The notes beneath the pieces are model-generated. The model made no database searches. It worked only from the letters and a program-made list of their open reading frames with translations, and was not told the origin of the DNA. From contig CM120646.1 in the NCBI GenBank assembly GCA_051362555.1, positions 21,328,001-21,392,000 of the forward strand: a DNA stretch of 64,000 nt, read 5' to 3'. A program made the translations under genes and the position numbers. Within the stretch, counting starts at the first letter, position 1. Each line of letters starts with the position of its first letter. Positions 8,464 to 63,424 of the stretch are shown one piece after another. The stretch is from Lingula anatina (lineage: Eukaryota; Animalia; Brachiopoda).

Positions 8464-9073
8464 ATGATGGAAAAACCCAAATCGTTTAGTATAGACGCTT
8501 TGCTAGCGAAGTCCGACAAGGGGCACTCAGGACTGGCCGGACGCAGTCCTAAGGAAGTGGAAGTGGACGTTACAACCTACGACATGGACAGTCCAGACCA
8601 CTTGACTGGTCACGGGAGGACAAGCCCAAGATCCAACGCCTCCAGCTCCCGGGGGTCGTCACCGCAGAACCCGAGGGAGACAATGTCACGAGGGGGTGGA
8701 GTGGGCATGGACTCAGACTCGGACAAGGAGAGCTGCTCACCTCAGTCCGGGTTCATTCCTCGTCCAGGACTTCTCCCTCTAAACCCCAACTTAGGAATCC
8801 CCCAGCAGGGCTCCCCGGGCTTTCTACCGGCCGGGTTCTACCTGGGCCACCATATGTTCCCCTTTAACGGCCAATCTCCCCCGGGACCCCAGGGTATGCC
8901 CAGCGGCCACCCCCCTTCGTCATCGGGAGGCGTTTCACTCAACGGCAGTGCGTTCCATACCCCGGTGGAACAGCTGTACAAGATGGCGCAGGCGTCTCAG
9001 AATCTCCAGTTGGAATGGTGGGCGAGGGCGGCCCAGAACGGGCTCTTCATGCCTCGGGTCACAGATTATAACG
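8464..9073 (+). CDS. Mnx: Mnx/HB9 motor neuron and pancreas homeobox, coding exon 1
   Basis: ATG at 8464 gives MMEKPKSFSIDALLAK (eh1 motif as in Mnx N-termini); later LEWWAR..GLFMPRVTDY pre-homeodomain motif; donor G|GTGAGT at 9073/9074, phase 1. Confidence 0.93.
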
Positions 9074-12000
9074 GTGAGTTGGGGGATGGTACGGAGCAGT
9101 TTCGTTTTATTAAGTCTTGTGATCGTTTCCAATTTTGGCTTGCTTTGAGAGCTATTTTCTGGTGATTTTTTTTACGTTTGGTATTTATTTTCCTGGCGTT
9201 TTGGTTCAAGAGAAAGGTGTGTTGTGATTTTACGGGGTGTCGTCGAAGTAAAAAGATATTCCGTGATTTCTTATATTTTTCTTATCGCCCATATTTCACT
9301 GTAAATGATATGAAAACATTTTTTTCTTGGTTTAAAGTTTCGAATATATTCAGGTTCACTTATTTTTTTCATTTAGGATTTGTAAAAATCCAAGTCTCTA
9401 GAATTCCTTTTCCCGTTGATAATCTTTTGGTACAAAATAAACTCGTGCGTCTCCAAACACATTTTTGTGAACGTATTCTGCTTTTAACTTTTTTAAATAT
9501 TTTCTATTACCAATTCCAAATGTAATGGTCTTTGATTGCTTTTTTATGGAAAGAACAATAATTATTTGTAATATCAAGAAGCATCTCTTACTTTAAATTG
9601 ATTATCAAGGATTACAGTACGCAAGTATGATGTGCTTACTGCCATTTTCCGTCCCTTGATTTTGAAGTTAAGTTTCGCTTCGAAAAAATTCAATAGGCCT
9701 TGCAAATATTTTACTTCTTTGTGAAAGGACGATTTAATCATTGTTTAAATGTAGATTAAAAGTTTTGACTGAAATTTTGATCAGTATGAGTTCTGATTTA
9801 GTCTCTTTGGTTGGAAATGAACGTTCACTATTCTGTCCTTACAACCAGGAGATTTACCAGGGTGTTTAGGTTTACATTACCACCTCCCCAGGTTCGGGGA
9901 AGGATGCCACCCGACAAAGGTGTAATAATTAGCTGCCATGAAAATTTTAGAAATTATTACATAAAATTTCCAGTCTTACATACATACCAAAGGTAATGGA
10001 AATATTCAGTATGAGATGAAGAATTTTTTCTTCAAACGGTGGCAACATCAATGTATTCATATTTGACTTATATCCTAATTAATTTTTCGAAGATTTTCTT
10101 CGATGGCTAATGGTCTCGATTTTTCATTTTCTTATAATCCAGTCAGATAAAACATGAAACAATCGGGACATTAGTAATACATGCACTAGTGCCAAAAGGT
10201 CCTAAGGCAAATATGACTAATATGACTCATATTACTAACAAATGGTGTTAAATTTGAAATCAAGCAGTAAACAGAAATTTATTTTGTCAGTTTTGTAGTA
10301 CTGCAGACTTTATCGTTAAAATTAATTTCTTTTCTCGCCGTTAAACGCGTCCTCTGCGGTCACGTTTAAGGGCCATGCACGTGTATTGAGACCCTAAGCC
10401 AACATAGATAAGTATTTTACGACTTTTCCAAGTGCTGTTATTTGCTGGACTGTAACTTAAGTATCTAACTAAAACTATTTACAACCAAGTGTTTGTATTG
10501 TGCAATGTTCATGTGTATAAAGTCATCACTGCCTCGTTAATTCTCTAATGGATCATAATTCTGCCAAATTTGGCCTCATAAGATGAACACATTGGCTTCT
10601 ATGGGCAATCACGCTTGTTGTGTTTTTATCTTTATTGTTGATGCTGGGTTATATTGAATTCTATAGATGGAAAAACAAATATGAATAAAAGAAATATTTT
10701 TAATGTAAAGAATAAGATACGTACACTTAAGTACTTGCCTTTTGGTAAAAACGTTGACCATTAAATTTCCTGAACAGGTTGAGTCACGTTTTGCTAGATT
10801 TTCCTGTTAGAATTTTTCTCATTTGCTGATTGGCTTAACGAGATCCTATGTTTTGTTGATTCTTTAAATTTTATATACTGTTTTTGAAATACAGTGTATT
10901 TAATTGTTTTTTTATATGTAAAACAAATATCTTTTATCAGGGATGTTCCTGTCCCATGGCAAAACCAACTGCCACAATATCACTTTGCCAAATTCTAGAT
11001 TATCGTTAATACGCTCCCTGAAATATTTATTGCTGGTGGATTGATAAGATGAAGCACCCCATAAAGTATGTACTGAAATGTCCCCCGCCCTAGCATAAGA
11101 CCATGTCACTTTATCCAGTTTATTTTATAATCAAGAATGTTAAAATATCTAGAGCTCGTTTTTCAAAAATGGCTTTTGATCGTTTTGATAGTTTTATGCT
11201 TGAACAGTGAATTTTTTTTCTTAAGACAGTCCTTCTTATGGACACAGTGTTCTATTTGTTTACGTTTATTAAACAAATTTCTCTATCATTTGCAAATCAT
11301 TTCCCGTTTTCTGGAACATTGCTCAAAGATAGGTATACAATGTCATACGTTGTTTTCAGAACTCAAAATCAACGGTGTCATAATTTTTGATTGACGTAAA
11401 ATAATTTAAAGGATGCTCGCTGATAAACTGGAATTTTAACTAAACATGATACGCGCGGTAGTTTTGAACTCAAATGTTAACCAGAGGAAGATACGACATT
11501 TAATTATAGATAGAAGATGCGTTGACTATCTAAAGTATACAAAATTAGATATCAACATTGACTCTAGGTAAATATAATCAAATATATTCATATCAGTCGT
11601 CGGTCATAAGAAGACATTCCATATTACTTCGTGGTAGGTATGGATTTTCTCCCAAAATTGTGACTTTGTTAATTTTGTTTTAGTTGCTAAATTAGTATTT
11701 TTCTTCGCATAAATTGTTTACTAGTTATATGCAGTTGTGGACACGATGACAGCATTGCCTATCGTTATTGATATAATTTTAAACGATTATTAAATCAAAT
11801 GTGAATTAGTTTTGATATCTGGCTTCAAAAATTGCAAATGATTAGCGCTTCAAGTAAGAAGTAATGTCCAGTTAAGTGCCGAAGAGAGATGCACTTCACG
11901 GAGATCATTAACTCCAAAAATAATACACTTTTATGAAATACTTAAATTTGTTTTTGGATAATAAATCAGTGTTCAAAACTTCGTCGGTGCATTTTGTGGA

Positions 12001-26117: not shown

Positions 26118-27249
26118 CTATACGAGTCCAATATCATCCGCACATTTTTGTAAACTACGCCTTAAAAGTTGAGCTACACCTAATTTAGAACGCAAGACCG
26201 CGCTTAAGTCCATTCTACGGAATCCCTCTAAGTAGTCTTTGTTTTGCAGTACGATCAGATGGGTCTCGTTCATTTCCTTAGCGAGATCTCGTTGGTCGCT
26301 CATGAGATCTGCGGTACTAAACTGAAACCACGCCTCGGAGCCTTCAATGTTATGGAACCGTAACCCAAGGCCCAGTTGTTCCTCAAAAACAGGCTGGGCA
26401 GTTTCGGTACCCAGTTCCGTGCCTTTAAAGGGATCGGCCCCAGACGCCAGAGCTTTGTGTGCCGTGTTAAATCGAGTTTGGTGAATTTTCATAATCCAGT
26501 TTTTGGTAAACTCCGTCTGCATGCGAAATGGGCCCATATTCCCGACATGGAATTCTCCTGATGGGCGTCTAGAACCCACGATGTCATTACTGCCCAGCAA
26601 GTCTAGGTATTCCCTCATGCTCTTAAAACTGATGGTATCCACATCAAAATACATCCCGCCATAGTTAGAAAGAATCGCCGCCCGGAAGTAATCTGATTTG
26701 TGGGCGGGGTTAAGGGAATGGTACATGGGTTGCAGGTAGTCCACGCTCTGTGCAAACTGGGTCGAGTTGAAGACTTTGATGTGGAAATCTTTCTCATTGT
26801 GGCAAATTATGCTAAGAATACACAAGTCGATATAGGCAGGACGCAGAGGACCCTCCCAAAATAACCAAATGAACGGCTTGCCGACAAGTTCGTACACCAT
26901 TGTAATGGGATTCTGAACAAAACGTACTTTCATAACCGGGTCACTGTTCACTTTATAGATGTCTAAGAGCTGCCGCACTTTTCTCTCAAATCCGTCATAG
27001 TCAAATGTGTCAACTGGTGCTTCCGTCACAGTGACGTCAGCTTGCGCGGTACCGGAAGTGATGATGAGAAGTCCGCACACCATGACGACGGCCACGAGAC
27101 CTAGGAGGGCTATAATGCGCCGCTGTCCACGTGACATGAAGGTGATGGAACGAACTAACATTTTGCCCTTTAATCGGAGCTTTTCTTTGTAATCCATCAT
27201 GCGCTGGTGTCTGCTTATTGTAGTTTGCATTGACCCTCCAGAAGTGGTG
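26118..27249 (-). CDS. DXD glycosyltransferase (GT32 / Caps_synth-like), type II membrane protein, main exon
   Basis: TM segment IIALLGLVAVVMVCGLLII; IWLFWEG; HKSDYFRAAILSNYGGMYFDVDTI (SDxxR...YGG.Y.DxD signature); minus-strand acceptor TTGTGTTTTAG|C at 27250/27249. Confidence 0.88.
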
Positions 27250-28561
27250 CTAAAACACAAGTAGAAATAATATATATATGTATATAGGAAAAATTGGTGT
27301 TATTCAAAATTCATTCAATTTTAAATTTGAGGCTTGTCGATTTCATAGTGCTTATTGCGTGTTGCTCCATGACACATGTACTGAGCGTAAAGGGTGCGTA
27401 GAGTTAACAGCTTTGTAGAGTTTTTCTATATATAAAAATGAACTTTAAAATCAAAGTGAAATTAAAAAATAATTGTAGCCTCGCGGTCTTTTAAAAGTTG
27501 GTAAACTCATTTAATGTACAACATTAATAACAGAGAAAACGGTAGAAATATATTCTTGAGGAAAAAATTCTTAGGGGAGATTTTGTAATCAGTTTATTAT
27601 GATAAATTTTTATAAGTAATAAAGTGATATATAAATATAAATCTTATATGCTAAACTGGCAAACAAGGTTAATTGATCACGTGATACATAATAGGTCGCT
27701 TTTACGCAACGATAATTTCAAACTTTTAAAACTGGTCGTCTGTGATTGTGGCATTACGTCAACATGTAAAAATCTGCTTATTACTTTCCACAGTTGAATA
27801 AAAGCCGAGAACATACAGAAGACATTTTCAACAAGTTTAAGCCACGAAGAATTCCATGAGCGGGAATGGGCGCAAGCACTTGTGTTCTACATTTCGTGTG
27901 GGCTGGTAGATCTCCAGAATATTTGCATTATTTTGCAATGTATCAAATGTAATAATTTTTCAAATTAAAGACAGAAATGCATTTTATGAGGCAGATTGAG
28001 AGAGGCCCGTAATCCGTTGTTGAAAGACTCCCAATAACGGCCCTCGTGTCGTCTGCGAAACTTTCGCTAACAGATGCTGTAATTAAACTGATCAAACACC
28101 CGTAATGACTAAGCCAACTGCGAGTTTTGTTCTTTGTCACGCGTATTATGATAAATCAACTGCGCTCTCTATAAACCTCTCCAAATGTGATGTGCAGAAT
28201 TCCAAAATCACCGAGGTTTATTCCGATAATGTCATTAAAATACCATTTTTTCGACGGACAGACTTTAAGGAAGATAAATATGTTCATTCTATCTGAATAT
28301 AACCTTTTATCTAAATTTAGCAGAAATTAAGGAAATGCTCCAGGATTGGATAATTACAACAATGGAATAATACTGAATACCTGATTAGAGACAAAAAATT
28401 AACATTCTTCAAGAAAATCATACAAGGGAATATTGAAAAGAAAAACTTTCGCAACTACGCTAAAATGCGACATAAAATCGAAACTTCAACATTCAGTATT
28501 TAAGCCTAAACGCATGTACACCTCTACAGATTTTAAGAATATTTTTAATATGTATACTGAC

Positions 28562-50444: not shown

Positions 50445-50811
50445 AAACACTTTCACCGTTAATTGAGGAAGCATAGAATTAGGGAGAATTCAGATTCAGA
50501 CATTGTACCAGCTAGATCAATCCGCCTCTGCAGGGATTCTCACCAACGCGCAGTCAGTGTAATCAGCTTTAATACTGGGTTCCCATACCTAGATCAATCT
50601 AACAAGTTTATTTCCTATTGGGACTTCAAAAGTTAATTTCCCCCTTTTCTTAAGAATACTGTGCAATTAACCACCATGCACATAGGCAATGCACAAGACT
50701 TTGGCGATAACATGATAATTCTGATCCATCCCTAATGACTGATGACTGCCCCTTTCCAGTGAATATTATATTTAACCAAATAGTATTTTACTAGGGGTAA
50801 ATGGACAACAG

Positions 50812-52341
50812 TTATGTCATACAGATTTTTCTGTAAAGCAAGTGGGCAATAAGTTTTCCTGTGCCACCGACAAATGAAACATCCCCATCGTTTGTCTTTT
50901 TTGCACACATGAAGTGATAACCTTCACAGGTTGTATCATTCATGGGATGTACAATGTGGAACGCATCAAAAACTTCCACCCCTAGTTTCTTCATTTTCGG
51001 TCCCAAAATTTCATTGGTTGCTGATTTCATAAAATAATTGCTATCTTTTCTCCATTCTCCGGCTGTCTGTATGTTAAAGTAGATCAGATGAACCTTTGCC
51101 TGTTTGGGATTTCGCTTAATACGGCTTATGACATTGAAGATAATTTTGCTATGATTTAGAATGAGGTGCCTTGCATTTCTACGAGCCAGGTCCCATTGAC
51201 CAAAACCTAAAACTATAACATCAGATGCAGACCATGTAGATCGTGACATCAGGTGCTTTTGGAGATTTGCAGCTGCAACATGTGGATAATTCCCCCACAT
51301 TGCTGCAATGTTTTCATTGTAGAAAAAAAGTCCATCTTGAATACCAGTCAAAGCGTATGGATATTTCATACTGAGTAAATGCATTAAGTAAAGACTAAGG
51401 TATCTCATGTGAGAGTCCCCTATGAAAGAGATGCTGGATTTATTTTTTTGACAACTAAGCAGTTCAGTTTGGGTCAAAAAAGGCAGCAAAAGGCCTGTTT
51501 GGGACCCCCATTGCCACGTACCATTTACTTTCCACCAGCGTCCATGCAGGTACTCTGTTATATTCCCACTATATGGGTAAGCTTCAATGTTCAGTCTCTC
51601 CTTGGAATTTGGGCATACATTGTTATATATACTTATTTTTTGCTTTAATCTTCCTGGCCATAAGATGCTAAAATTTTCATGATGCCTGTACCCCTCAAAG
51701 TTAACAAACTCCAAGAAGACAGTGATGTTGACACATGTATGTATTCTTGGACAGTGAGCAGTGTAGGTGCCATTAAAGTAGTCTTGGACAGGACACCACA
51801 TCCTCTCTCCACCCATTATTGTGATTCTGAATCCACTTCCCCCAGTGGACAGTGTACTTTGGCCATTGTGAACAAATTCAGTGATGTTCAAGATGACATA
51901 ATCTGGATTGGGTAGTTTTCGGATTAACTGTACTTGATGATGGTACTGCTTGGCATCAGACTTGTACTTGGAATAATCCAAAGGAGAAGTTGTTATATCT
52001 GGTTCTTTTGTGAAGTTTGTTATGGTCCAGTAATGGTAAAGTTGCAACATTTCTGTTGGACCAAAACGTGTGGGCTCTTTAATGAATCTGTCCTCTGGCT
52101 TTTTAAAATCAATAGGTAGTAAAGTGTTCTTTTGTTCTGCCAGGAACATCATACAAAATAGAACAGCAACAATCAGAAGAACTTTGCAGTAAAAAACATA
52201 TTGAAGTAACCTATGAGTACCTTGTTCTGCAATACACATCTTTACATTCATCTTCATTTTACCATCAAGTCTTGATAAAAGAAAACAACATTTGAAGCCA
52301 CCCAGAAAATTCATTTGACCACAGTCTTCATGAATATTCAT
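50812..52341 (-). CDS. NXPE/PC-esterase-like (SGNH-type) type II membrane protein, copy A, intronless ORF (alternative start 52257)
   Basis: 509-aa ORF; TM VLLIVAVLFCMMFL; GGSGFR...VQDYFNGTYTA NXPE Ig-like motif; FIGDSH; GQWD; FDAF...CEGYH. Confidence 0.85.
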   Translation of the reverse strand: MNIHEDCGQMNFLGGFKCCFLLSRLDGKMKMNVKMCIAEQGTHRLLQYVFYCKVLLIVAVLFCMMFLAEQKNTLLPIDFKKPEDRFIKEPTRFGPTEMLQLYHYWTITNFTKEPDITTSPLDYSKYKSDAKQYHHQVQLIRKLPNPDYVILNITEFVHNGQSTLSTGGSGFRITIMGGERMWCPVQDYFNGTYTAHCPRIHTCVNITVFLEFVNFEGYRHHENFSILWPGRLKQKISIYNNVCPNSKERLNIEAYPYSGNITEYLHGRWWKVNGTWQWGSQTGLLLPFLTQTELLSCQKNKSSISFIGDSHMRYLSLYLMHLLSMKYPYALTGIQDGLFFYNENIAAMWGNYPHVAAANLQKHLMSRSTWSASDVIVLGFGQWDLARRNARHLILNHSKIIFNVISRIKRNPKQAKVHLIYFNIQTAGEWRKDSNYFMKSATNEILGPKMKKLGVEVFDAFHIVHPMNDTTCEGYHFMCAKKTNDGDVSFVGGTGKLIAHLLYRKICMT

Positions 52342-53021
52342 ATTTCCCTCTGTGTTACCAGCATCATATTATTTATTCATTATTTATGGACATATGGATA
52401 AGACTTGATCATTCCAATGTGGGGAACATTATGAATTTTACAGATACTGAATTTTTATTGTAATAAATTCTTAAAACATTCGAATTGAGTGTTAATAACA
52501 AAACTGGAAAGCTGGCTACCATTAAGTTTTATTCTTGAGAATAAAATCACCATATATAGAGATATAATTTTTATGACTCCAAAATAATGTTGCTGAGGGA
52601 TTGGTACCTTTTCCCAACTGAAAATATTGAGTTATTACGTTATTAATATAGGAGAACAGGACCTGGCTTACCCCATTTTCTCATCTACCTGTATTTGGTC
52701 CTTTGTAATTTGAAAAACCAATGAATGATTTCATTATTAGAGTTCACTCGAGTTGGTGAAAGGTGCGGAAATGGTAATTTAAGTTCAGTCAGCCATGTTC
52801 CTTTGCTGATGAGACTACTTAATACTTTTATTTTAATTTTGCCCTGAAAATGTGTGAATTAACTGTAATAATTAATATGCAATAAGTCATTTCAGGCACT
52901 GATTGACATAAACTCTCTTCTGGCACTTGTCTGTTTAACTTGCCCGTGAACAATTTTTGGGATGTAGTAATGGGATATTGCTATTGTATATAATAAACAG
53001 CTGGTTTATGATAAACTTGAC

Positions 53022-53272
53022 TTAAGTCATGCAGATTTTTCTGTAAAGTAACTGGGCAATGACTTTACCTGTATCACCAACAAATGTTACAGTGCCATGC
53101 CTTTTCTTTTTTTTCGGACACAAGTAGTGAACAAGATCACAAATTGTATCAGTCATAGGATATACAATGTGGAATGCATCAAAAACTTCCACACCAAGTT
53201 TCTTCATTTCTGTTCCCAGTATTTCATTGGTTGCTGATTTCATGAAATAATTACTTTTCTCCTCGCTCCACC
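53022..53272 (-). pseudogene. NXPE-like 3'-end cassette B (C-terminal ~80 codons only)
   Basis: MKSATNEILG...DLVHYLCPKKKKRHG...RKICMT*; upstream it is fused directly to 3'-flank sequence and has a small deletion. Confidence 0.8.
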
Positions 53273-53418
53273 AGTCATTTCAGGCACTGATCAACAAAAA
53301 TTCTTTTCAGGCACTTGTCTGTTTAACTTTTCTTCAAACAATATTTGGGATGTATTAATGAGATACAGCCAGTTCGGATAATAAACAGCTGATATAAATT
53401 GTTTTTTTTTTGTAGGAC

Positions 53419-53670
53419 TTAAGTCATACAAATTTTTCTGTAAAGTAACTGGGCAACGGCTTTACCGGTATTACCGACAAATGTTACAGGAGCAGACATT
53501 TGCTTTTTTGGACACAAGTAGTGAACAAGATCACAAATTGTATCAGTCATAGGATATACTATGTGGAATGCATCAAAAACTTCCACACCAAGTTTCTTCA
53601 TTTCTGTTCCCAGTATTTCATTGGTTGCTGATTCCATGAAATAATTGCTATCTTTTCTCCATGCTCCACC
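53419..53670 (-). pseudogene. NXPE-like 3'-end cassette C (C-terminal ~83 codons only)
   Basis: GGAWRKDSNYF...DLVHYLCPKKQMSAP...RKICMT*; same junction (CCACC|AGTCATTTCAGG on +) as cassette B, ~398-bp period. Confidence 0.8.
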
Positions 53671-53817
53671 AGTCATTTCAGGCACTGATCAACAGAAATT
53701 CTTTTCAGACACTTGTCTGTTTAACTTGCCTTCAAACAATACTTGGGATGTATTAATGGGATACTGCCAGTTCGGATAATAAAAAGCTGATATAAATTGT
53801 TTTTTTTTTTGTAGGAC

Positions 53818-55337
53818 TTAAGTCATACAAATTTTTCTGTAAAGTAACTGGGCAACGGCTTTACCGGTATCACCGACAAATGTTACAGGACCAGACATTT
53901 CCTTTTTTGGACACAAGTAGTGAACAAGATCACATATTGTATCAGTCATAGGATATACTATGTGGAATGCATCAAAAACTTCCACACCCAGTTTCTTCAT
54001 TTCTGTTCCCAGTATTTCATTGGCTGCTGATTTCATGAAATAATTGCTATCTTTTCTCCATTCTCCACCTGCCTGTATGTTAAAGTAGATCAAGCGAAGT
54101 TTTGCCTGCTTGGGATTTCCCTTTATACCTCTGATGGCGTCAAAGATAATTTTGCTGTGTTTTAGAATGAGGTGTCTTGCATTTCTACGAGTCACATCCA
54201 TTGACCGAAACCTAGAACTATGACATCGGATGGAGACCATGTAGATCGTGACTTCAAATGCTTCTGGAGATTTGCAGCAGCAACATGTGGATAATTTCCC
54301 CACATTGATGCAATACTTTTATTGTAGAAAAATAGTGTATCTGTAGTGCCATCGGGGAGGTGTGGATTTTTCATGTTGAGTAAATATATTAAATAAAAAC
54401 TTATCACTCTTATGTGGGAGTCCCCAATGAAAGACATGCTAGATTTATTTTTTTGACAATGTAGCAGTTCAGTTGTAGTCAAAAAAGGCAGCAAAAGACC
54501 TGTTTTGGACCCCCATCGCCATGTACCATTAACTTTCCACCAGCGTCCCTGGAGGTACTCTGTTATATTCCCACTAAATGTGTCAGCTTTAATGTTCAGT
54601 CTTTCCTTGGATCTTGGACATACATTGTTATATATATTTAGTGTTTTTTCTAGTCTTCCTGGCCATGCAATTTTATATTTATGGTGCCTGTAGCCCTCAA
54701 AGTTGACAAACTCCAAGAAGACAGTGATGTTGACACATGTATGTATCCTTGGACAGTGAGCAGTGTAGGTGCCGTTGAAGTAGTCTTGGACAGGACACCA
54801 TATCCTCTCTCCACCCATTATTGTGATTCTGAATCCACTTCCCCCAGTGGACAGTGTACTTTGGCCTTTCTGAACAAATTCATTGATCTTCAAGATGACA
54901 GAATCTGGATTGGGTAGTTTTCGGATTAACTGCACTTGATGATGGTACTGTTTGGCATCAGACTTGTACTTGGAATAATCCAAAGGAGAAGTTGTTATAT
55001 CTGGTTCTTTTGTGAAGTTTGCTATGGTCCAGTAATGGTAAAGATGCAACATTTCTGTTGGACCAAAACGTGTGGGCTCTTCTATGAATCTGTCCTGTGG
55101 CTTATTTACATCAGTAGGTAGAGAGGCGTTCTTTTGTTCTGCCAGGAACATCATCAAAAATACAACAGCAACAATCAGGAGAACTTTGCAGTGAAAAACA
55201 TATTGAAGTAACCTATGAGTACCCTGTTCTGCAATCCGCATCTGTACATTCATCTTCATTTTACCATCAAGTCTTGATAAAAGAAAACAGCATTTGAAGC
55301 CACCCATTAAATTAATTTGATCACAGTCTTTTTTCAT
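53818..55337 (-). pseudogene. NXPE-like copy D, full length with a 1-nt frameshift at ~54198
   Basis: Two overlapping ORFs (54192-55337 and 53818-54303) rebuild one gene; + strand ATCCATTG versus GTCCCATTG in the paralogs. GDSH and DLVH are intact. Could be an assembly error. Confidence 0.75.
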
Positions 55338-56053
55338 GAATATTCATATTTCCTCCTGTGTTGCCAGCATCATATTATTTATTATTAATGGATATATATA
55401 TATGGATAATACTTGATCTTTCCAATGGGAAAAATTATGGATTTTACATATACTGAATTTTTATTGTAATAAATTCTTAAAACATTCTGATTGAGTGTTA
55501 ATAACAAAACTGAAAATGAGGCTACCCTTTAGTTTTATTCTCGAGAAGAAAATCACCATATATAGAGATATAATTTTTATGACTCCAAATAAAGTTGCTG
55601 AGGGATTGCTACTTTTTCTCAACTGAAAATATTGAGTCATTGCAGTATAAGTATAGGAATAGGAAACCTGACTTACCCAGTTTTCTAATCTTACTACCTG
55701 TCTTTGGTTCTTAATAATTTGAAAAACCAATGGATGATTTCATAACCAGAATTCACTCGGATTGGTAAAAGTTGCGGAAAATGAACACTTAAGTTCAGTC
55801 AGCTACTTTCTTTGTTTTAAAGACGTTTAGCGAATACTTATTGTTCTCATTGTGTCCTGAAAATATGTCAATAAAGTGAAAGTATTATGCTAAATAAGTC
55901 TTTTCAGGCACTGATTGACACATTCTTTTCAGGCACTTGCATGTAAAATTTGCCTGCAAACAATATTTGGGATGTAATAATAGGATATTGCCATTGTAAA
56001 TAATAAACAGCTGGTATATGATATGTGTGTATAAATTGTTTTTTTGGTAGGAC

Positions 56054-57610
56054 TTAAGTCATACAGATTTTTCTGTAAAGTAGCTGGGCAATGACTTTAC
56101 CTGTATCACCGACAAATGTTACAGGGCCATGCCTTTTCTTTCTTTTTGGACACAAGTAGTGAACATTATCGCATATTGTATCAGTCATAGGATATACAAT
56201 GTGGAATGCATCAAAAACCTCCACACCAAGTTTCTTCATTTCTGTTCCCAGTATTTCATTGGTTGCCGATTTCATGAAATAATTACTATCTTTTCTCCAT
56301 GCTCCACCTGCCTGTATGTTAAGGTAGATCAAGCGAAGTTTTGCATGCTTGGGATTTCCCCTTATACCTCTGATGGCATCAAAGATAATTTTGCTGTGTT
56401 TTAGAATGAGGTGTCTTGCATTTCTACGAGTCACGTCCCATTGACCGAAACCTAGAACTATGACATCGGATGAAGACCATGTAGATCGTGACTTCAGGTG
56501 CTTCTGGAGATTTGCAGCAGCAACATGTGGAAAATTCCCCCACATTGCTGCAATGTTTTCATTGTAGAAAAATAGTGTATCTGTAGTGCCATCGAAGAGA
56601 TGTGGATTTTTCATCTTGAGTAAATACATTAAATAATAACTTATTGCTCTTATGTGGGAGTCCCCAATGAAAGAGATGCTAGTTTTCTTTTTTTGACAGC
56701 TTACCAGTTCAGTTGGAGTCAAAAAAGGCAACAAAAGACCTGTTTTGGACCCCCATCGCCAGGTACCATTAACTTTCCACCAGCGTCCATGCAGGTACTC
56801 TGTTATATTCCCACTAAATGTGTCAGCCTTAATGTTCAGTCTCTTCTTGGATCTTGGACAGACATTGCTATATATATTTAGGATTTTTTCTAGTCTACCT
56901 GGCCATGCAATTTTATAGTTGTTATGGTGCCTGTAGCCCTCAAACTTGACAAACTCCAAGAAGACAGTGATGTTGACACATGTATGTATCCTTGGACAGT
57001 GAGCAGTGTAGGTGCCATTAAAGTAGTCTTGGACAGGACACCACATCCTCTCTCCACCCATTATTGTGATTCTGAATCCACTTCCCCCAGTGGACAGTGT
57101 ACTTTGGCCTTTCTGAACAAATTCAGTGATGTTCAAGATGACAGAATCTGGATTGGGTAGTTTTCGGATTAACTGTACTTCATGATGGTACTGCTTGGCA
57201 TCCGAGTTGTACATTGAATAATTCAAAGGAGAAGTTGTTATATCTGGTTCTTTTGTGAAGTTTGCTATGGTCCAGTAATGGTAAAGTTGCAACATTTCTG
57301 TTGGACCAAAACGTGTGGGCTCTTCAATGAATCTGTCTTCCATTTTTTTAAAATTAATAGGCAGCCGAATGGGCTTTTCAGTGAATCTGTCCTCTAGTTT
57401 TTTTGAATTAATAGGCAGTCGTATGGGCTCTTCAGTGAAACTGTCCTCTGGTTTCTTAAAATTAATAGGTAGAAAGACATTCTTTTGTTCTGCCTGGAAC
57501 ATCATCCGAAATACAACAGAAACAATCAGGAGAACTTTGAAGTAAAAAATATATTGAAGTAACCTATGACTACAATGCTCTGCAACACGCATCTGTATAT
57601 TCCTCTTCAT
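56054..57610 (-). CDS. NXPE/PC-esterase-like copy E (518 aa from the first ATG)
   Basis: ATG at 57610 (MKRN); TM; three 18-aa stem repeats; FIGDSH and CDNVH intact. Confidence 0.87.
   Translation of the reverse strand: MKRNIQMRVAEHCSHRLLQYIFYFKVLLIVSVVFRMMFQAEQKNVFLPINFKKPEDSFTEEPIRLPINSKKLEDRFTEKPIRLPINFKKMEDRFIEEPTRFGPTEMLQLYHYWTIANFTKEPDITTSPLNYSMYNSDAKQYHHEVQLIRKLPNPDSVILNITEFVQKGQSTLSTGGSGFRITIMGGERMWCPVQDYFNGTYTAHCPRIHTCVNITVFLEFVKFEGYRHHNNYKIAWPGRLEKILNIYSNVCPRSKKRLNIKADTFSGNITEYLHGRWWKVNGTWRWGSKTGLLLPFLTPTELVSCQKKKTSISFIGDSHIRAISYYLMYLLKMKNPHLFDGTTDTLFFYNENIAAMWGNFPHVAAANLQKHLKSRSTWSSSDVIVLGFGQWDVTRRNARHLILKHSKIIFDAIRGIRGNPKHAKLRLIYLNIQAGGAWRKDSNYFMKSATNEILGTEMKKLGVEVFDAFHIVYPMTDTICDNVHYLCPKRKKRHGPVTFVGDTGKVIAQLLYRKICMT
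57311..57472 (-). repeat. Coding tandem repeat, 3 x 54 nt, in copy E
   Basis: LPINFKKPEDSFTEEPIR / LPINSKKLEDRFTEKPIR / LPINFKKMEDRFIEEPTR. Confidence 0.9.
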
Positions 57611-58149
57611 CTTACCATCAAGCCTTGCACTAATAAAGCCACTCAAAAATTCAAGATGGTTTTTTGCACAATACTCTTCTCATACTGTGTCACCAGTATC
57701 ATATTATTTATTCAAGCTTCTGCTTCAAGGTTAGGATATTAGTCTTTTAGATCTTGATATTGATATTTAATGCACTTAAATATATATATAGGTTTGTTAA
57801 TTAAGCAATGATACTTTGATCTTGATGACTTCTTTGTTCTACAAAACTTGAGAAAATCAAAGCTTTGGACATACAATGTCAACAAACATTTTTGGGATAA
57901 AATGAGGTTTAGATAGCATTTAGAAGTCAGTCTTTTACTGTACAAAAAACGAGAGTGTCCAATTGTATAAGGCAGTCCTTTTAGAAGGGAAAAAAGAAAT
58001 GTTTGACTAAGTCGATATTTCTTTATACATACAACCGATATATTGATCGAGTAACTTGTAGAATTGCCAAATTTTGGAAAATGTTTGAATGTGTGCAATG
58101 GCTTCTTGCCTCTTTTGCACTGCTCCGCAGTGCTCAGTCTTGCATATCT

Positions 58150-59372
58150 CAGGGATTGTCCTTGGTCAAAATCAGGTTGGGCCATTTTGGCCCACTTGGT
58201 AAAATAAAAGTGGGATATTTTTTAAAAAATGTGTGCCGTGAATTATTTAGAGAAAATTCATTATATTTCAGTATTTTTATATGATTAAAAACAATGAAAA
58301 AGGCTTGATGCTGCTTCTCTAAAGTCCTAAATAGTTGTAGTGTGGAAAAATCTTCCAAAATTAACTGTCTGAAAAATTGTACTGAATGAAAAAAATCTTT
58401 CAGAATTAATAATTGTACTAAGTGCAATAAATGCACTGCATGGAAAAGGTTCACAATTCCTATTTTTATTGTAAAAAAAGCCATTGCTCTTCAAAGAATT
58501 TTTACTCAAAATATTTGCATTGTTTTTTTAACCTGAAAATAATTAAGCAGTGATCTAAGCTGAGAGAAACTGGTCTTGAATATATCTATATTTACATAAA
58601 ATCTAGCAAGCAACTATATAACTTTACAAAAATAAGTTAGCACACCTATTAATGAATTTACACATGAGGGATTTGTGATTATTACACTGATGCAGGGCTT
58701 ATTTTTCAGGGCACCTGTCTGGTCAGGCCTACTGCTAACAAGTTTTACCTGTCCCCAGATGATTTCCATTTGCACAGCCTTCCCCCCCCCCCCCCCCCCC
58801 CCCCCCCAAAAAAAAAGTGCATTTTTTTTCAATATCCAAGCTAGTTCGTTTAGATGAATATAATGGACAGTTTTGCATCCTGACTGTGCCATTGCGGATT
58901 TTCTGCATTGAAAACGATGCTTCCCTCATTTTGACATGCAGCGCCACTAAAGGTGCAATATTACAAAAAATATCCGTTAAAATTTAGTCAAGAGCGCCCA
59001 ATAGAAAAGCAAATGAATATTTATCCTTTTCACTTATTGATTAGTCATCATGTAGTTTGACAGAAGCCATATTTGTTTACCCAGCACATGTTGTTAGGTG
59101 TTCTCAGAGGTCTGTGCACTGCCGGCATAACCAATTCGAGCGGTCTGTTTTTCATTGACCCGTAGTTGTTTCAGTTTCGATATATTTTTGTGAAACAGGT
59201 CACATGTCAGCCCTCACAGCACTTCGAGTGACATCAGATGTACGTAATCTTTATTATGAAATAAGTGTCTTCTATTTGTATGCACCAGTATGGCGCAGGT
59301 TAAAATTTTACTTGCGCCTTTGAGAAAGGGTCCGCGCATTTGGCGCAATTGCGCGGCCCAGGATTATCCCTG
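58150..59372. mobile_element. 1.2-kb non-autonomous hAT-like element with 6-bp TSD ATATCT
   Basis: ATATCT|CAGGGATTGTCCTTGG ... CCCAGGATTATCCCTG|ATATCT; the paralogous empty site TGC-ATATCT-GTCCTTTG is at 63045-63061. Confidence 0.88.
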
Positions 59373-59543
59373 ATATCTGTCCTTTGTTTACAGTATGAAA
59401 CTCCAAACTTAATATTTTTGAAAAGTAATGCGTGTTGGTGTTTCACTAGATAACCAACATCCAGTGTATGTGAGTTATTAGTTCTAGAGTCACACTTGAT
59501 ACCAAGCTATTTATTGATATTTTATTAGTCTCACTGCAGCTTA

Positions 59544-59905
59544 GCCATTGTTCACATGAAAAATCCAAAATCCAAAAATCCATTGGCAGTATCTAGTGAT
59601 GACAGTCCGTGCCCTGAATATCCAGTGGCGTAATTTACTCGCAGCATGAGCGAGTCATTTCCAAAGCTGTTATTAATTCTCAGCTGCGCTTAGAGAAGAT
59701 TCTGACACCTGGACGCATGTGCAGTAATAAATTAGAGAGAAAGGAAATGGCGGCTGCGGTTGCTTTGAAAAATGTGTTTGTCGAATTTGTGCAACAGCAA
59801 GAGGAAGAAGATGAGGTCCATATACACACGACAGATATGAGTGCAACCATCATGATTCTGACACCTGGACGCATGCACAGTAATAAATTAGAGAGAAAGA
59901 AAATG
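59544..59905 (+). mobile_element. Truncated Harbinger-like element end with an internal ~55-bp duplication
   Basis: TTA|GCCATTGTTCACATG...CTGAATATCC..GGCGTAATT resembles 41623-41730; GATTCTGACACCTGGACGCATG..CAGTAATAAATTAGAGAGAAAG occurs twice (~59698, ~59854). Confidence 0.5.
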
Positions 59906-60100
59906 GTGGCACTGCTTGGCATCAGACTTGTACTTGGAAAGAAGTTGTTATATCTGGTTCTTTTGTGGAGTTGGTTATGGTCCAGTAATGGTAGAGTTGC
60001 AACATTTCTGTTGGACCAAAACTTATGGGCTCTTCAATGAATCTGTCCTCTGGTTTTTTAAAATTAATATGTTGTAAGGCTTTCTCAGGTTCTGTCGGGA
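59905..60100 (-). pseudogene. NXPE-like remnant G (stem/N-terminal fragment with deletions)
   Basis: ACTGCTTGGCATCAGACTTGTACTTGGAA...CATTTCTGTTGGACCAAAAC...GGGCTCTTCAATGAATCTGTCCTCTGG matches the paralogs; start, TM and catalytic part are missing. Confidence 0.8.
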
Positions 60101-60710
60101 ATGTGGAAAAAATTGTGAATTTTATAGATACTGAATTTTTATTGTAATAAATTCTTAAAACATTCTGATTGAGTGTTTATAACAAAACTGAAAAGCAGGC
60201 TACTGTATAGTTTTATTCTCAATTAAATGTTTTATAGAGATATAATTTTTATGACCCCAAATAATGTTGCTGACAGACTGGTACTTTCTCCCAACTGAAC
60301 ATATGGAATCGTTGCACTATCAGAATAGAAGAGAACCTGACTTACCCAGGTTTCTCATCTACCTTTATTTGGATTCTTAATAATTTGTAAATCCATTGGA
60401 TGATTTCATTATCAAAGTTCACTCGAGTTGGTGAAAGGTGGGGAAAAATTGACATATATTAAGTTCAGTCAGCCATTTTTCTTTGCTGATAAGACTATAA
60501 GTAAATACTTTTTATTCTTTCTGTGCCCTGAAGATGTGTGAAATAACTGAAAGTGTTATGCTAAATAAGTCATTTCGGGCACTGATCAACAGAAATTCTT
60601 TTCAGGCACTTGTCTGTTTAACTTGCCTTCAAACAATATTTGGGATGTATTAATGGAATACTGCCAGTTCGGATAATAAACAGCTGATATAAATTATTTT
60701 TTGGTAGGAG

Positions 60711-62480
60711 TTAAGTCATACAAATTTTTCTGTAAAGTAACTGGGCAACGGCTTTACCGGTATCACCGACAAATGTTACAGGACCAGACATTTTCTTTTT
60801 TGGACACAAGTAGTTAACAGGATCACATGTTGTATCAGTCATAGGATATACAATGTGGAATGCATCAAAAACTTCCACACCAAGTTTCTTCATTTCTGTT
60901 CCCAGTATTTCATTGGTTGCTGATTTCATGAAATAATTGCTATCTTTTCTCCAACTTCCACCTGCCTGTATGTTAAGATAGATCAAGCGAAGTTTAGCCT
61001 GCTTGGGATTACTTCTTATGGCTCTAATGACATCAAAGATAATTCTGCTTTGATTTAAAATTAGCTGTCTTGCATTTCTTTCAGTCAGGTCCCATTGACC
61101 GAAACCTAGAACTATGACATCAGATGTGGACCATGTAGATCTTGACTTCAAGTGCTTTTGGAGATTTGCAGCAGCAACAAGTGGATTATTCCCCCACATT
61201 GCTGCAATGTTTTCATTGTAGAAAAATAGTGTATCTGTAGTGCCATAGAAGAGATGGGGATTTTTCATCTTGAGTAAATACATTAAATAATAACTTATCG
61301 CTCTTATGTGGGTGTCCCCAATGAAAGAAATGCTGGATTTATTTTTTTGACAACGTAGCAGTTGAGTTGGAGTCAAAAAAGGCAGTAAAAGGCCTGTTTG
61401 GGACCCCCATTGCCAGGTACCATTAACTTTCCACCAGCGTCCCTGGAGGTACTCTGTTATATCCCCACTATATGTGTCAGCTTTAATGTTCAGTCTCTCC
61501 TTGGATCTTGGGCATACATTGTTATACATACTTATTTTTTTCTTTAATCTTCCTGGCCATGGTATATTATATTTGTCATGGTGCCTATACCCCTCAAAGT
61601 TGACAAACTCCAAGAAGACAGTGATGTTGACACATGTATGTATTCTTGGGCAATGAGCAGCGTAGGTGCCATTGAAGTAGTCTTGGACAGGACACCACAT
61701 CCTCTCTCCACCCATTATTGTGATTCTGAATCCACTTCCCCCAGTGGACAGTGTTTCTTGGCCATTGTGAACAAATTCAGTGATGTTCAAGATGACAGAA
61801 TCTGGATTGGGTAGTTTTTGGATTAACTGCACTTGATGATGGTACTGCTTGGCATCAGACTTGTACTTGGAATAATCCAAAGGAGAAGTTGTTATATCTG
61901 GTTCTTTTGTGGAGTTTGTTATGGTCCAGTAATGGTAAAGTTGCAACATTTCTGTTGGACCAAAATGTATGTGCTCTTCAATTAATCTGTCCTCTGGTTC
62001 TTTAGAACTCATAGGCAGTTGTGTGGGCTCTTCAATTAATCTGTCCTCTGGTTCTTTAGAATTCATAGGCAGTTGTGTGGGCTGTTCAGTGAATCTGTCC
62101 TCTGGTTCTTTAGAATTCATAGGCAGTTGTGTGGGCTCTTCAGTGACTTTGTCCTCTGGTTCTTTAGAATTCATAGGCAGTTGTGTGGGGTCTTCAGTGA
62201 AACTGTCCTCTGGTTCTTTAAAATTAATAGGCAGTTGTGTGGGCTCTTCAGTGAAACTGTCCTCTGGCTTTTTAAAATCAATAGGTGGTTGTGTGGGCTC
62301 TTCAGTGAAACTGTCCTCTGGCTTTTTAAAATCAATAGGTGGTAAGGCTTTCTTTTGTTCTGTCAGGAACATCATCCATAATACAACTGCAACAATCATT
62401 AAAAGTTTGCAGTAAAAAATATATTGAAGTAACCTATGAGTACGCTGCTTTGCAATACGCATCTGGATATTTGTCTTCAT
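60711..62480 (-). CDS. NXPE/PC-esterase-like copy F (589 aa), catalytic motifs altered (GDT, DPVN)
   Basis: Intact ORF; TM LLMIVAVVLWMMFL; seven 18-aa stem repeats; FIGDTH and CDPVN. Confidence 0.87.
   Translation of the reverse strand: MKTNIQMRIAKQRTHRLLQYIFYCKLLMIVAVVLWMMFLTEQKKALPPIDFKKPEDSFTEEPTQPPIDFKKPEDSFTEEPTQLPINFKEPEDSFTEDPTQLPMNSKEPEDKVTEEPTQLPMNSKEPEDRFTEQPTQLPMNSKEPEDRLIEEPTQLPMSSKEPEDRLIEEHIHFGPTEMLQLYHYWTITNSTKEPDITTSPLDYSKYKSDAKQYHHQVQLIQKLPNPDSVILNITEFVHNGQETLSTGGSGFRITIMGGERMWCPVQDYFNGTYAAHCPRIHTCVNITVFLEFVNFEGYRHHDKYNIPWPGRLKKKISMYNNVCPRSKERLNIKADTYSGDITEYLQGRWWKVNGTWQWGSQTGLLLPFLTPTQLLRCQKNKSSISFIGDTHIRAISYYLMYLLKMKNPHLFYGTTDTLFFYNENIAAMWGNNPLVAAANLQKHLKSRSTWSTSDVIVLGFGQWDLTERNARQLILNQSRIIFDVIRAIRSNPKQAKLRLIYLNIQAGGSWRKDSNYFMKSATNEILGTEMKKLGVEVFDAFHIVYPMTDTTCDPVNYLCPKKKMSGPVTFVGDTGKAVAQLLYRKICMT
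61965..62342 (-). repeat. Coding tandem repeat, 7 x 54 nt, in copy F
   Basis: (L/P)P(I/M)(D/N/S)(F/S)K(K/E)PEDxxxE(E/D/Q)PTQ units; the last unit ends EHIH. Confidence 0.92.
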
Positions 62481-63424
62481 TTTGCCATCAGATCCTTCAC
62501 TATTGAAACCACTCTAAAATGTATTTGACTATGAATATTGTTTATTGCACAATATTCTTCTCATACTGTGTTACCAGTATCATATTATTTATTCAAGCTT
62601 CTGCTTCAAGGTTAGGATATCTGTCTTTTAGATCTTTATTGATATTTAATGCACTTACATATAGGTTTGTTAATTAGGCTATGATACTTAGATCTTGATG
62701 ACTTCCTTGATTTGACAAAAAATGACAAAAGTAAAGTTTTGGACATACAATGTCAACAATCTTTTTTAGGAAAAGAATGAGGTTGAGATAGGATTTAAAA
62801 GGCAGTTTTTTACTGTACAAAAAAGGAGAGACTTTGAGTTTTAAGCAGCGTCCAATTGTATCTGATTGATAGGCAGTCCTTTTAAAAGGGAAAAAGGAAA
62901 TGTTTGACCAAGTTGATATTTCTTTCTTATATACAACTGATGTATTTTGATCGAATAACTTGTAGAATTGCCAAATTTTGGAAAATGTTTGAATGTGTGC
63001 AATGGCTCCTTGCCTCTTTTGCGCTGCTCCGCAGTGCTCACTCTTGCATATCTGTCCTTTGCTTACAGGATGAAACTCCAAACTTATGTTTTCAAAGTAA
63101 TGCGTGTTGATGTTTCACTCGATAACCAACATCCAGTGTGTGTGAGTTAGTTCTAGAGTCACTCTTAATAACTAGCTATTTACTGATAGTTTACTAGCCT
63201 CACTGCAGTATATTTTTCATTTGTGGTCCATGTGCTCAAAATGATCTTTGGCATGTTTTGGCAAAAACAAGGCAGACTTGGTGCAAAAACTCGATCTAGA
63301 AATCCTTTTGATTTTAAGTCTGTAATCCCAAATTGGATTTTTAAATAATGTGGTGTAAGCTTGATATGCTACAGTGAGACTAGGTTTGACGTGTTGCTTG
63401 CTAACTTTCACTTCTAACCACTAG

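What the first reader, a model, noticed from the sequence alone, without database searches (positions are those of the whole stretch)
60711..62480. Copy F looks like a pseudoenzyme: catalytic Ser and His both replaced while the ORF stays open
Seen: paralogs read GDSH and (D/E)xxH, but F reads GDTH (TCC to ACC, base 61313) and DPVN (CAC to AAC, base 60815), and it also has the longest stem. Known: Ser and His of these motifs are the nucleophile and general base in SGNH-type enzymes. Inferred: two single-base hits on exactly the catalytic pair in an intact 589-codon ORF suggest conversion to a lectin, decoy or regulatory partner of the active copies rather than random decay.
Basis: partly seen in the sequence, partly recalled or inferred. 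Interest (0 to 1): 0.8.

Follow-up and report, generated by a model that had tools for sequence, protein, structure and literature searches.

The report
Catalytically dead copy of NXPE-like enzyme
A marine animal (likely the lamp shell Lingula) has a tandem copy of a predicted sugar-acetylating enzyme gene with both predicted catalytic residues replaced but the rest intact, so the copy is likely inactive, and it is about equally likely to be a kept non-catalytic partner or a copy starting to decay.

Summary
F (60711-62480, minus strand, 589 codons) reads GDTH and DPVN where its tandem paralogs have Ser and His, and it has the longest stem (7 repeat units, against 3 and 1). The changes are not errors: contigs from three studies carry the Asn codon, and one run carries the Thr codon. 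The array encodes NXPE/FAM55-type PC-esterases (profile hit to human NXPE1, E 7.7e-10; best fold match XOAT1), so the active copies are more likely glycan O-acetyltransferases than esterases. Of 54 family-conserved columns, F changed only these two (chance 0.002-0.003). Full-length relatives lacking both residues recur (4 of 105), two of them in old sister pairs that lack the His. Against a kept role: 4 of 7 copies in the array are broken, F's dN/dS (0.54-0.74) is not significantly below 1, RNA runs give only trace reads on any copy, and the case was picked after the fact. Verdict: F is almost surely inactive. A retained pseudoenzyme (about 0.48) and early decay (about 0.42) are close. No lectin, decoy or dimer role was shown.

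The parts
60711..62480 (-). Copy F: 589-codon uninterrupted ORF, NXPE/PC-esterase-like predicted type II membrane protein lacking the catalytic Ser and His
61311..61313 (-). Thr390 codon ACC (TCC, Ser, in A, D, E); predicted nucleophile position
   Evidence: same base in a contig of run X1
60813..60815 (-). Asn556 codon AAC (CAC, His, in A, B, C, D, E); predicted general-base position
   Evidence: same base in contigs of runs X1, X2, X9
62364..62420 (-). Predicted single transmembrane anchor, residues 21-39
   Evidence: highest 19-residue hydropathy 2.44
61966..62339 (-). Stem: 54-bp (18-aa) in-frame tandem repeat, 6.9 copies, acidic and Pro/Thr-rich
60714..61961 (-). Head: filamin/neurexophilin-like beta region followed by an SGNH-like acyl-transfer domain
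   Evidence: model pLDDT 90.3; fold matches; profile alignment to NXPE1
56054..57610 (-). Copy E: intact paralog, GDSH/DNVH, 3 stem units
50812..52257 (-). Copy A: intact, most divergent paralog, GDSH/EGYH, 1 stem unit
53818..55259 (-). Copy D: full length, GDSH/DLVH, with a 1-bp deletion near 54198 (not checked in reads)
53419..53670 (-). Copy C: 3' fragment only (DLVH)
53022..53279 (-). Copy B: 3' fragment only (DLVH) with a 4-bp gap
59891..60152 (-). Broken 5' fragment (one stem unit plus start of the head) between E and F

Best explanation
F is a tandem duplicate of a predicted NXPE-type glycan O-acetyltransferase that has replaced both predicted catalytic residues, is therefore likely inactive, and is possibly kept as a folded non-catalytic protein that would bind the same sugar or pair with its active siblings and so would dampen or steer their acetylation. 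Shown: the two substitutions, the open frame, their presence in other individuals, family assignment by profile and fold, and no change at the other conserved columns. Inferred: that A and E transfer acetyl groups through an acetyl-serine intermediate as NXPE1 does; that Thr plus Asn cannot do so; that selection still acts on F. Untested: expression as protein, location, ligand and any dimer with E or A. A dimer is suggested only by human NXPE1 being a homodimer.
For: F differs from its paralogs at only S390 and H556 among 15 columns conserved in at least 90% of relatives and 54 conserved in at least 50%. P(both hit) = 0.0016-0.0027 and P(no other conserved column hit) = 0.06-0.13. The frameshifted copy D has hit two non-catalytic conserved columns, A one, E none. 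With 35 random point changes a stop would arise in 78% of simulations. My rough model gives at most 0.0043 for a second catalytic hit with an otherwise clean gene after a first disabling hit, against about 0.06 if only the active site was released. F keeps 28 of 29 family columns, as E does, and its model is as confident as E's (pLDDT 90.3 and 90.1). Relatives lacking both residues occur in 4 of 105 where 0.33 are expected from independent loss. Two sister pairs lack the His across long branches while keeping 22-25 of 29 columns. The 8 listed variants that I assigned to F-type contigs are 5 synonymous and 3 non-synonymous (P = 0.027 against neutrality).
Against: F's dN/dS is 0.54-0.74 (23 non-synonymous, 12 synonymous), not significantly below 1 (P 0.07-0.25). 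It is close to D's 0.57-0.77 and above E's 0.33-0.45, though F against E is not significant (P = 0.43). Most of F's clean record could date from before the loss. 4 of 7 copies in the array are broken. RNA: about six reads' worth of depth on F in each of 2 of 4 runs and none in the other two, no higher than nearby non-coding bins. F's other changes are not enriched at the active-site face (4 of 20, P = 0.20). The allele count rests on my own assignment of contigs to F, only 3 of the 8 variants lie on a contig that also bridges a catalytic site (2 synonymous, 1 not), and 13 rows were hidden. The case was selected after the fact from a large scan. Nxpe1 is itself a pseudogene in mouse (bioRxiv 10.64898/2026.05.20.726592).
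Confidence: 0.48

Rival explanations
1. Early decay: F was an active, constrained enzyme for most of its history, became redundant, lost the His and then the Ser by chance, and has not yet picked up a stop or frameshift. The long stem is slippage of a 54-bp repeat.
For: 4 of 7 copies are already broken; dN/dS is not distinguishable from neutral or from D; only trace RNA. F and D are identical over the last 51 coding bases and alike in the 3' flank, a sign of recent conversion next to the His codon, so the His loss may be recent. Duplicates usually decay (established knowledge), and a scan of many windows will turn up 1-in-500 coincidences.
Against: Needs a second hit on the one other catalytic codon with no stop and no other conserved column touched: at most 0.0043 given the first hit, and under 0.0001 if the gene was first silenced. 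No indel was listed in the F frame in four DNA runs. The active copies A and E are just as poorly covered by RNA.
Confidence: 0.42
2. F keeps a weak or altered activity, with Thr390 as nucleophile and another residue or the substrate acting as base.
For: Thr keeps a hydroxyl, and the neighbouring G388, D389, H391, R393 and G461, W463, D464 are unchanged. The family already tolerates loss of the Asp.
Against: No relative among 105 has Thr at this column. The His is the proposed general base in NXPE1 and XOAT1, and Asn cannot take that role (established chemistry).
Confidence: 0.07
3. Assembly or sequencing artefact: F is a chimera of collapsed paralogs, or the two bases are errors.
For: The array is repetitive and mosaic (22, 11 and 4 conflicting informative sites). 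No listed contig spans both catalytic sites, and run X10 shows no cover over several F-specific stretches.
Against: The Asn codon is in contigs of three studies and the Thr codon in one, each with 0-4 other differences. F-specific stretches and the upstream flank are covered at single-copy depth in X2 and X9.
Confidence: 0.03

Closest known systems
Human NXPE1 (FAM55 subfamily of PC-esterases; PDB 9PJA), sialic acid 9-O-acetyltransferase
   Same: A profile of E, A and 96 relatives matches it over nearly the whole length (E 7.7e-10): N-terminal anchor, neurexophilin/filamin-like region, GDS motif, late His. NXPE1 uses Ser355 and His529 and is a homodimer; S355A is inactive and D526A only reduced.
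   Different: E alone gives no PDB sequence hit, and neither E nor F has a Pfam hit. The substrate in this animal is unknown. F lacks both residues and has a 7-unit repeat stem.
Arabidopsis XOAT1 (PDB 6CCI), xylan O-acetyltransferase
   Same: Best structural match to the E model among 1000 chains: Z 16.5, rmsd 3.3, 219 aligned; also matched by the F model (E 4.9e-4).
   Different: 14% identity; plant enzyme with a full Ser-His-Asp triad; next rows are GDSL hydrolases at Z 15, so the fold does not fix the direction of the reaction.
Lingula anatina XP_013414681.1 and XP_023930662.1 (uncharacterised)
   Same: Nearest sequences found, 35% and 32% identical to E; both keep Ser and His.
   Different: Distant paralogs, not members of this array.
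Oskar OSK domain
   Same: SGNH-like fold without catalytic residues, reused for binding (PMC5785220 passage); appears in the fold list for E at Z 13.2.
   Different: Old, cytoplasmic, RNA-binding and of proven function; F is young (91-92% nucleotide identity to E and D) and of unproven function.
Fam20A pseudokinase partner of Fam20C
   Same: Model for an inactive paralog of a secretory-pathway enzyme acting through a heterodimer (PMC5865150 passages).
   Different: Unrelated fold; an analogy only, no dimer was tested here.

Membership tests
NXPE/FAM55-type PC-esterase | N-terminal transmembrane anchor | tested here: met
   hydrophobic 19-mer at residues 21-39; prediction by hydropathy only
NXPE/FAM55-type PC-esterase | Neurexophilin/filamin-like beta region before the esterase domain | tested here: met
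   family profile aligns to this region of NXPE1 and to gelation-factor filamin repeats; all-beta in the models
NXPE/FAM55-type PC-esterase | SGNH-like alpha/beta core | tested here: met
NXPE/FAM55-type PC-esterase | Trp or His in place of the block III Asn (PMC2824669) | tested here: met
   GQWD in F, E and A; W463 conserved in at least 70% of relatives
NXPE/FAM55-type PC-esterase | Catalytic Ser in GDS and His before the last helix | tested here: not met
   Not met for F (Thr390, Asn556). Met for A, D and E. F belongs by descent, not as an active member.
NXPE/FAM55-type PC-esterase | Pfam NXPE4_C or Neurexophilin match | tested here: inconclusive
   none for F or E; NXPE4_C in 19 of 98 aligned members; Atlas neighbour cluster with both families at 0.92
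NXPE/FAM55-type PC-esterase | O-acetyl transfer from acetyl-CoA to a sugar | not testable with these tools
   needs an assay
NXPE/FAM55-type PC-esterase | Dimer as in NXPE1 | not tested
   the complex-prediction queue was full
Canonical GDSL/SGNH hydrolase | Block III GxND motif | tested here: not met
   GQWD in the full-length intact copies
Functional pseudoenzyme | Catalytic residues lost, fold retained | tested here: met
   the fold is a prediction made with an alignment of active relatives
Functional pseudoenzyme | Purifying selection after the loss | tested here: inconclusive
   dN/dS 0.54-0.74, P 0.07-0.25; 5 synonymous to 3 non-synonymous allele variants
Functional pseudoenzyme | Expressed | tested here: inconclusive
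   trace reads in 2 of 4 RNA runs, of which 6-25% was read
Functional pseudoenzyme | Non-catalytic function (binding, regulation) | not testable with these tools
   needs binding or genetic tests

The most novel reading that the evidence does not exclude
F is a pseudoenzyme caught at birth: an NXPE-type O-acetyltransferase turned into a long-stalked glycan-binding protein or dimer partner that sets how far its tandem siblings acetylate surface glycans. It would be the youngest case of a conversion that has happened repeatedly in invertebrate NXPE-like proteins.
Probability: 0.3. Interest if true: 0.65.

Novelty: new variant of a known kind. Interest (0 to 1): 0.38.

Why it matters
If F is kept, it offers an enzyme and a pseudoenzyme that differ by only about 9% of their bases, so the first steps of the change can be tested directly, in a family whose chemistry has only recently been worked out in humans. 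The recurring dead relatives (4 of 105) suggest that NXPE-like proteins have a non-catalytic use that I did not find described. If F is decaying, it is an ordinary birth-and-death event in a tandem array and of little interest.

Tried and rejected
No whole genome is held for this window, so copies beyond its end could not be counted. The word-indexed protein search found no relative of F residues 176-589. F, E and A are not in the protein collection as exact sequences. phmmer of E against PDB found nothing. No RNA holder was listed in the run index. The hypothesis that F's changes cluster on the active-site face was rejected (4 of 20, P = 0.20; A shows 12 of 51). The E-F complex prediction never ran because the queue was full, so there is no verdict on a dimer. 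No splice joints were seen in RNA, so a shared upstream exon is untested. The parts of F without cover in run X10 are not taken as absence, because X10 has contigs with F-like markers at 60924-60995 and 61199-61277. The strand of the trace RNA reads could not be interpreted. Literature searches with no hit: Lingula + neurexophilin; pseudoenzyme + SGNH + catalytically inactive; serine-to-threonine nucleophile in esterases. None of the 12 papers listed contains the term NXPE; searches listed nothing on this family by title or abstract start. Earlier scan notes: nothing by sequence, place or words.

Full report
Observation. The window has a minus-strand tandem array at about 50.8-62.5 kb with seven related units: intact frames A, E and F; D, full length with a 1-bp deletion near 54198; 3' fragments B and C, which with the end of D form a 399-bp triple repeat; and a broken 5' fragment at 59891-60152. 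F is 589 codons and reads GDTH (ACC at 61313) and DPVN (AAC at 60815). A, D and E read GDSH, and all five copies that cover the second site have His. F's stem is 132 aa with seven 18-aa units, against 60 aa in E and 24 in A and D. The description is accurate.

Are the bases real? I laid contigs of 4 of the 11 indexed DNA-type runs, one per study, on 60200-63200. Listed contigs bridge 60815 with F's base in X1 (60766-60951, no other difference), X2 (60487-60859, two) and X9 (60232-60859, four plus a 2-bp gap, at single-copy depth). A listed contig bridges 61313 with F's base in X1 (61082-61462, two synonymous differences). In X2 the only listed contig over that site is E-like; X9 and X10 are unresolved. 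The output hid 191 pieces and 13 variant rows, and one of these runs could be the source of the assembly. No indel was listed inside the F frame. Error is therefore unlikely for the Asn codon and improbable for the Thr codon.

What the family is. Pfam and single-sequence PDB searches found nothing. A search of 50% representatives with E found 183 relatives and listed 150. The nearest two are uncharacterised Lingula anatina proteins at 35% and 32%, and earlier scan notes call this genome Lingula (not checked by me beyond those hits). A profile of E, A and 96 of the 150 relatives (picked by hand as mostly long ones covering both motifs) matches human NXPE1, PDB 9PJA, over positions 7-406 of 445 at E 7.7e-10; 19 of the 98 members match Pfam NXPE4_C. 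Models of F and E are equally confident (pLDDT 90.3 and 90.1). E's best structural match is the xylan O-acetyltransferase XOAT1 (Z 16.5, rmsd 3.3, 219 aligned), followed closely by GDSL hydrolases at Z 15. The GQWD motif fits the PC-esterase definition of Anantharaman and Aravind, who also note lineage-specific expansions of the FAM55 subfamily (PMC2824669, parts 1-2 of 4 and passages). NXPE1 acetylates sialic acid through Ser355, S355A is dead and D526A only reduced (PMC12216134, passages). It is found in the Golgi and forms an acetyl-serine intermediate (bioRxiv 10.1101/2024.12.24.630288, passages). It is a homodimer with a proposed Ser355/His529 pair (bioRxiv 10.64898/2026.05.20.726592, parts 1-2 of 4). 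I infer that A and E are glycan O-acetyltransferases; their substrate and the direction of the reaction are untested. No supplements were read.

Are these the catalytic residues? Among the 105 of 150 relatives covered at both sites, 97 have Ser and His, 4 have lost both, 3 only the His and 1 has Cys for Ser. The position three before the His is Asp in only 28 of the 97 and Cys in 51, so the invariant unit is a Ser-His pair; Ser-His dyads are known among SGNH enzymes (PMC9487903, passages). F has lost exactly that pair and is very likely inactive.

Kept or decaying? Informative sites favour (A,(F,(E,D))) by 22 to 11 to 4, with a conversion tract shared by F and D at the 3' end. In the 417-codon head F has 35 private base changes, 23 non-synonymous and 12 synonymous, giving 17 amino-acid changes, or 22 under a looser count. 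Of 54 columns conserved in half or more of 96 relatives, F changed only S390 and H556; D changed Q180 and N424, A one, E none. The chance that both catalytic codons are among the changes is 0.0016-0.0027, and that none of the other 52 columns is hit 0.06-0.13. Fully neutral evolution over the whole branch is unlikely: no stop and no other conserved hit occurred in 0.7% of simulations that place the 35 changes independently, which overstates the case because some changes are clustered in single codons. This does not separate a kept pseudoenzyme from an enzyme that was constrained until recently. For that second history the chance of a second catalytic hit in an otherwise clean gene peaks near 0.004, against about 0.06 if only the active site was released, roughly 14 to 1 in favour of a kept role. 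Decay is the far commoner fate of duplicates and 4 of 7 units here are broken; my weighing of that prior is a judgement and brings the two close to even. F's dN/dS is 0.54-0.74, not significantly below 1, like D's and above E's. The eight listed variants on contigs that I assigned to F are 5 synonymous and 3 non-synonymous; I left out the 21 other listed rows in the frame as paralog-like, and only three of the eight lie on a contig that also bridges a catalytic site. The idea that F's changes cluster around the pocket failed.

The family precedent is the most useful new point. Four double losses among 105 exceed the 0.33 expected from independent loss (P = 3.6e-5; related sequences are not independent, so this is indicative). 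On a tree, P0063 with P0120 and P0136 with P0131 are sister pairs (support 1.0 and 0.975, branches about 0.9 each). In each pair both lack the His and one also lacks the Ser, and they keep 22-25 of 29 other columns, where intact relatives average 25. P0136 has a His one residue further on, so its loss is less certain. These look like old folded non-enzymes, which makes a non-catalytic role for this fold plausible; their function and source organisms are unknown.

Expression. Four of nine listed RNA runs were laid on 50500-63000, reading 6-25% of each. F had about six reads' worth of depth in X12 and in X18 (my arithmetic from bin depths) and none in X15 or X16. E and D each had traces in two runs and A in none. 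No variant row or joint appeared at F's catalytic sites. The tissue or stage that uses the array was probably not sampled, so this neither supports nor refutes a role.

Mechanism and verdict. The reading I rank first is a folded, membrane-anchored, inactive copy on a long stalk that binds the siblings' sugar substrate or joins them in a dimer, as Fam20A does with Fam20C (PMC5865150, passages). Oskar's OSK domain shows that this fold can be reused without catalysis (PMC5785220, passage). Every functional step here is inferred, and the dimer prediction could not be run. I put this at 0.48, early decay at 0.42, residual activity at 0.07 and artefact at 0.03. I found no description of catalytically dead NXPE-like proteins in the searches, which cover only the open-access library. 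Novelty: a new variant of a known kind. Interest 0.38.

Noticed in passing
proteins P0034, P0092, P0120, P0131 (also P0063, P0136, P0071): Full-length NXPE-like relatives lacking both catalytic residues, or the His only, including two old sister pairs; candidate long-lived pseudoenzymes.
   Followed up: partly
window 26118-27299 (-): Uninterrupted ORF with a DXD glycosyltransferase domain (PF04488, E 1e-10) and an N-terminal hydrophobic stretch; another likely glycan-modifying gene about 23 kb from the array.
   Followed up: no
window 8467-9165 (+): ORF beginning with a KSFSIDALL motif; resembles the first exon of an Mnx-type homeobox gene (recalled, no call supports the name; Pfam gave nothing).
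   Followed up: no
window 60880 and 60882: Runs X2 and X9 have contigs at about two-copy depth that would read Gly534 as Asp at a conserved column; no copy in the window has this, so further alleles or copies exist.
   Followed up: partly
window 56604-56626: Four RNA reads of run X16 on copy E differ at four sites in a combination seen in no window copy, pointing to another paralog or allele.
   Followed up: no
window 60200-63200, run X10: No cover over several F-specific stretches and the upstream flank, yet contigs with F-like markers: a divergent allele or copy-number difference between animals.
   Followed up: partly
just upstream of the ATG of A, D, E and F (e.g. 62481-62510): T-rich stretches ending in AG that look like weak splice acceptors; the units could be spliced to an upstream non-coding exon. 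No joint was seen in RNA.
   Followed up: partly
window 54198: The 1-bp deletion in D follows a short G run and was not checked in reads; if it is an assembly error, D is a third intact active copy.
   Followed up: no
window 50567-50606, 59660-59690, 60105-60142: Short stretches matched by many RNA reads that continue into unrelated sequence: repeats transcribed from elsewhere, not expression of this array.
   Followed up: no
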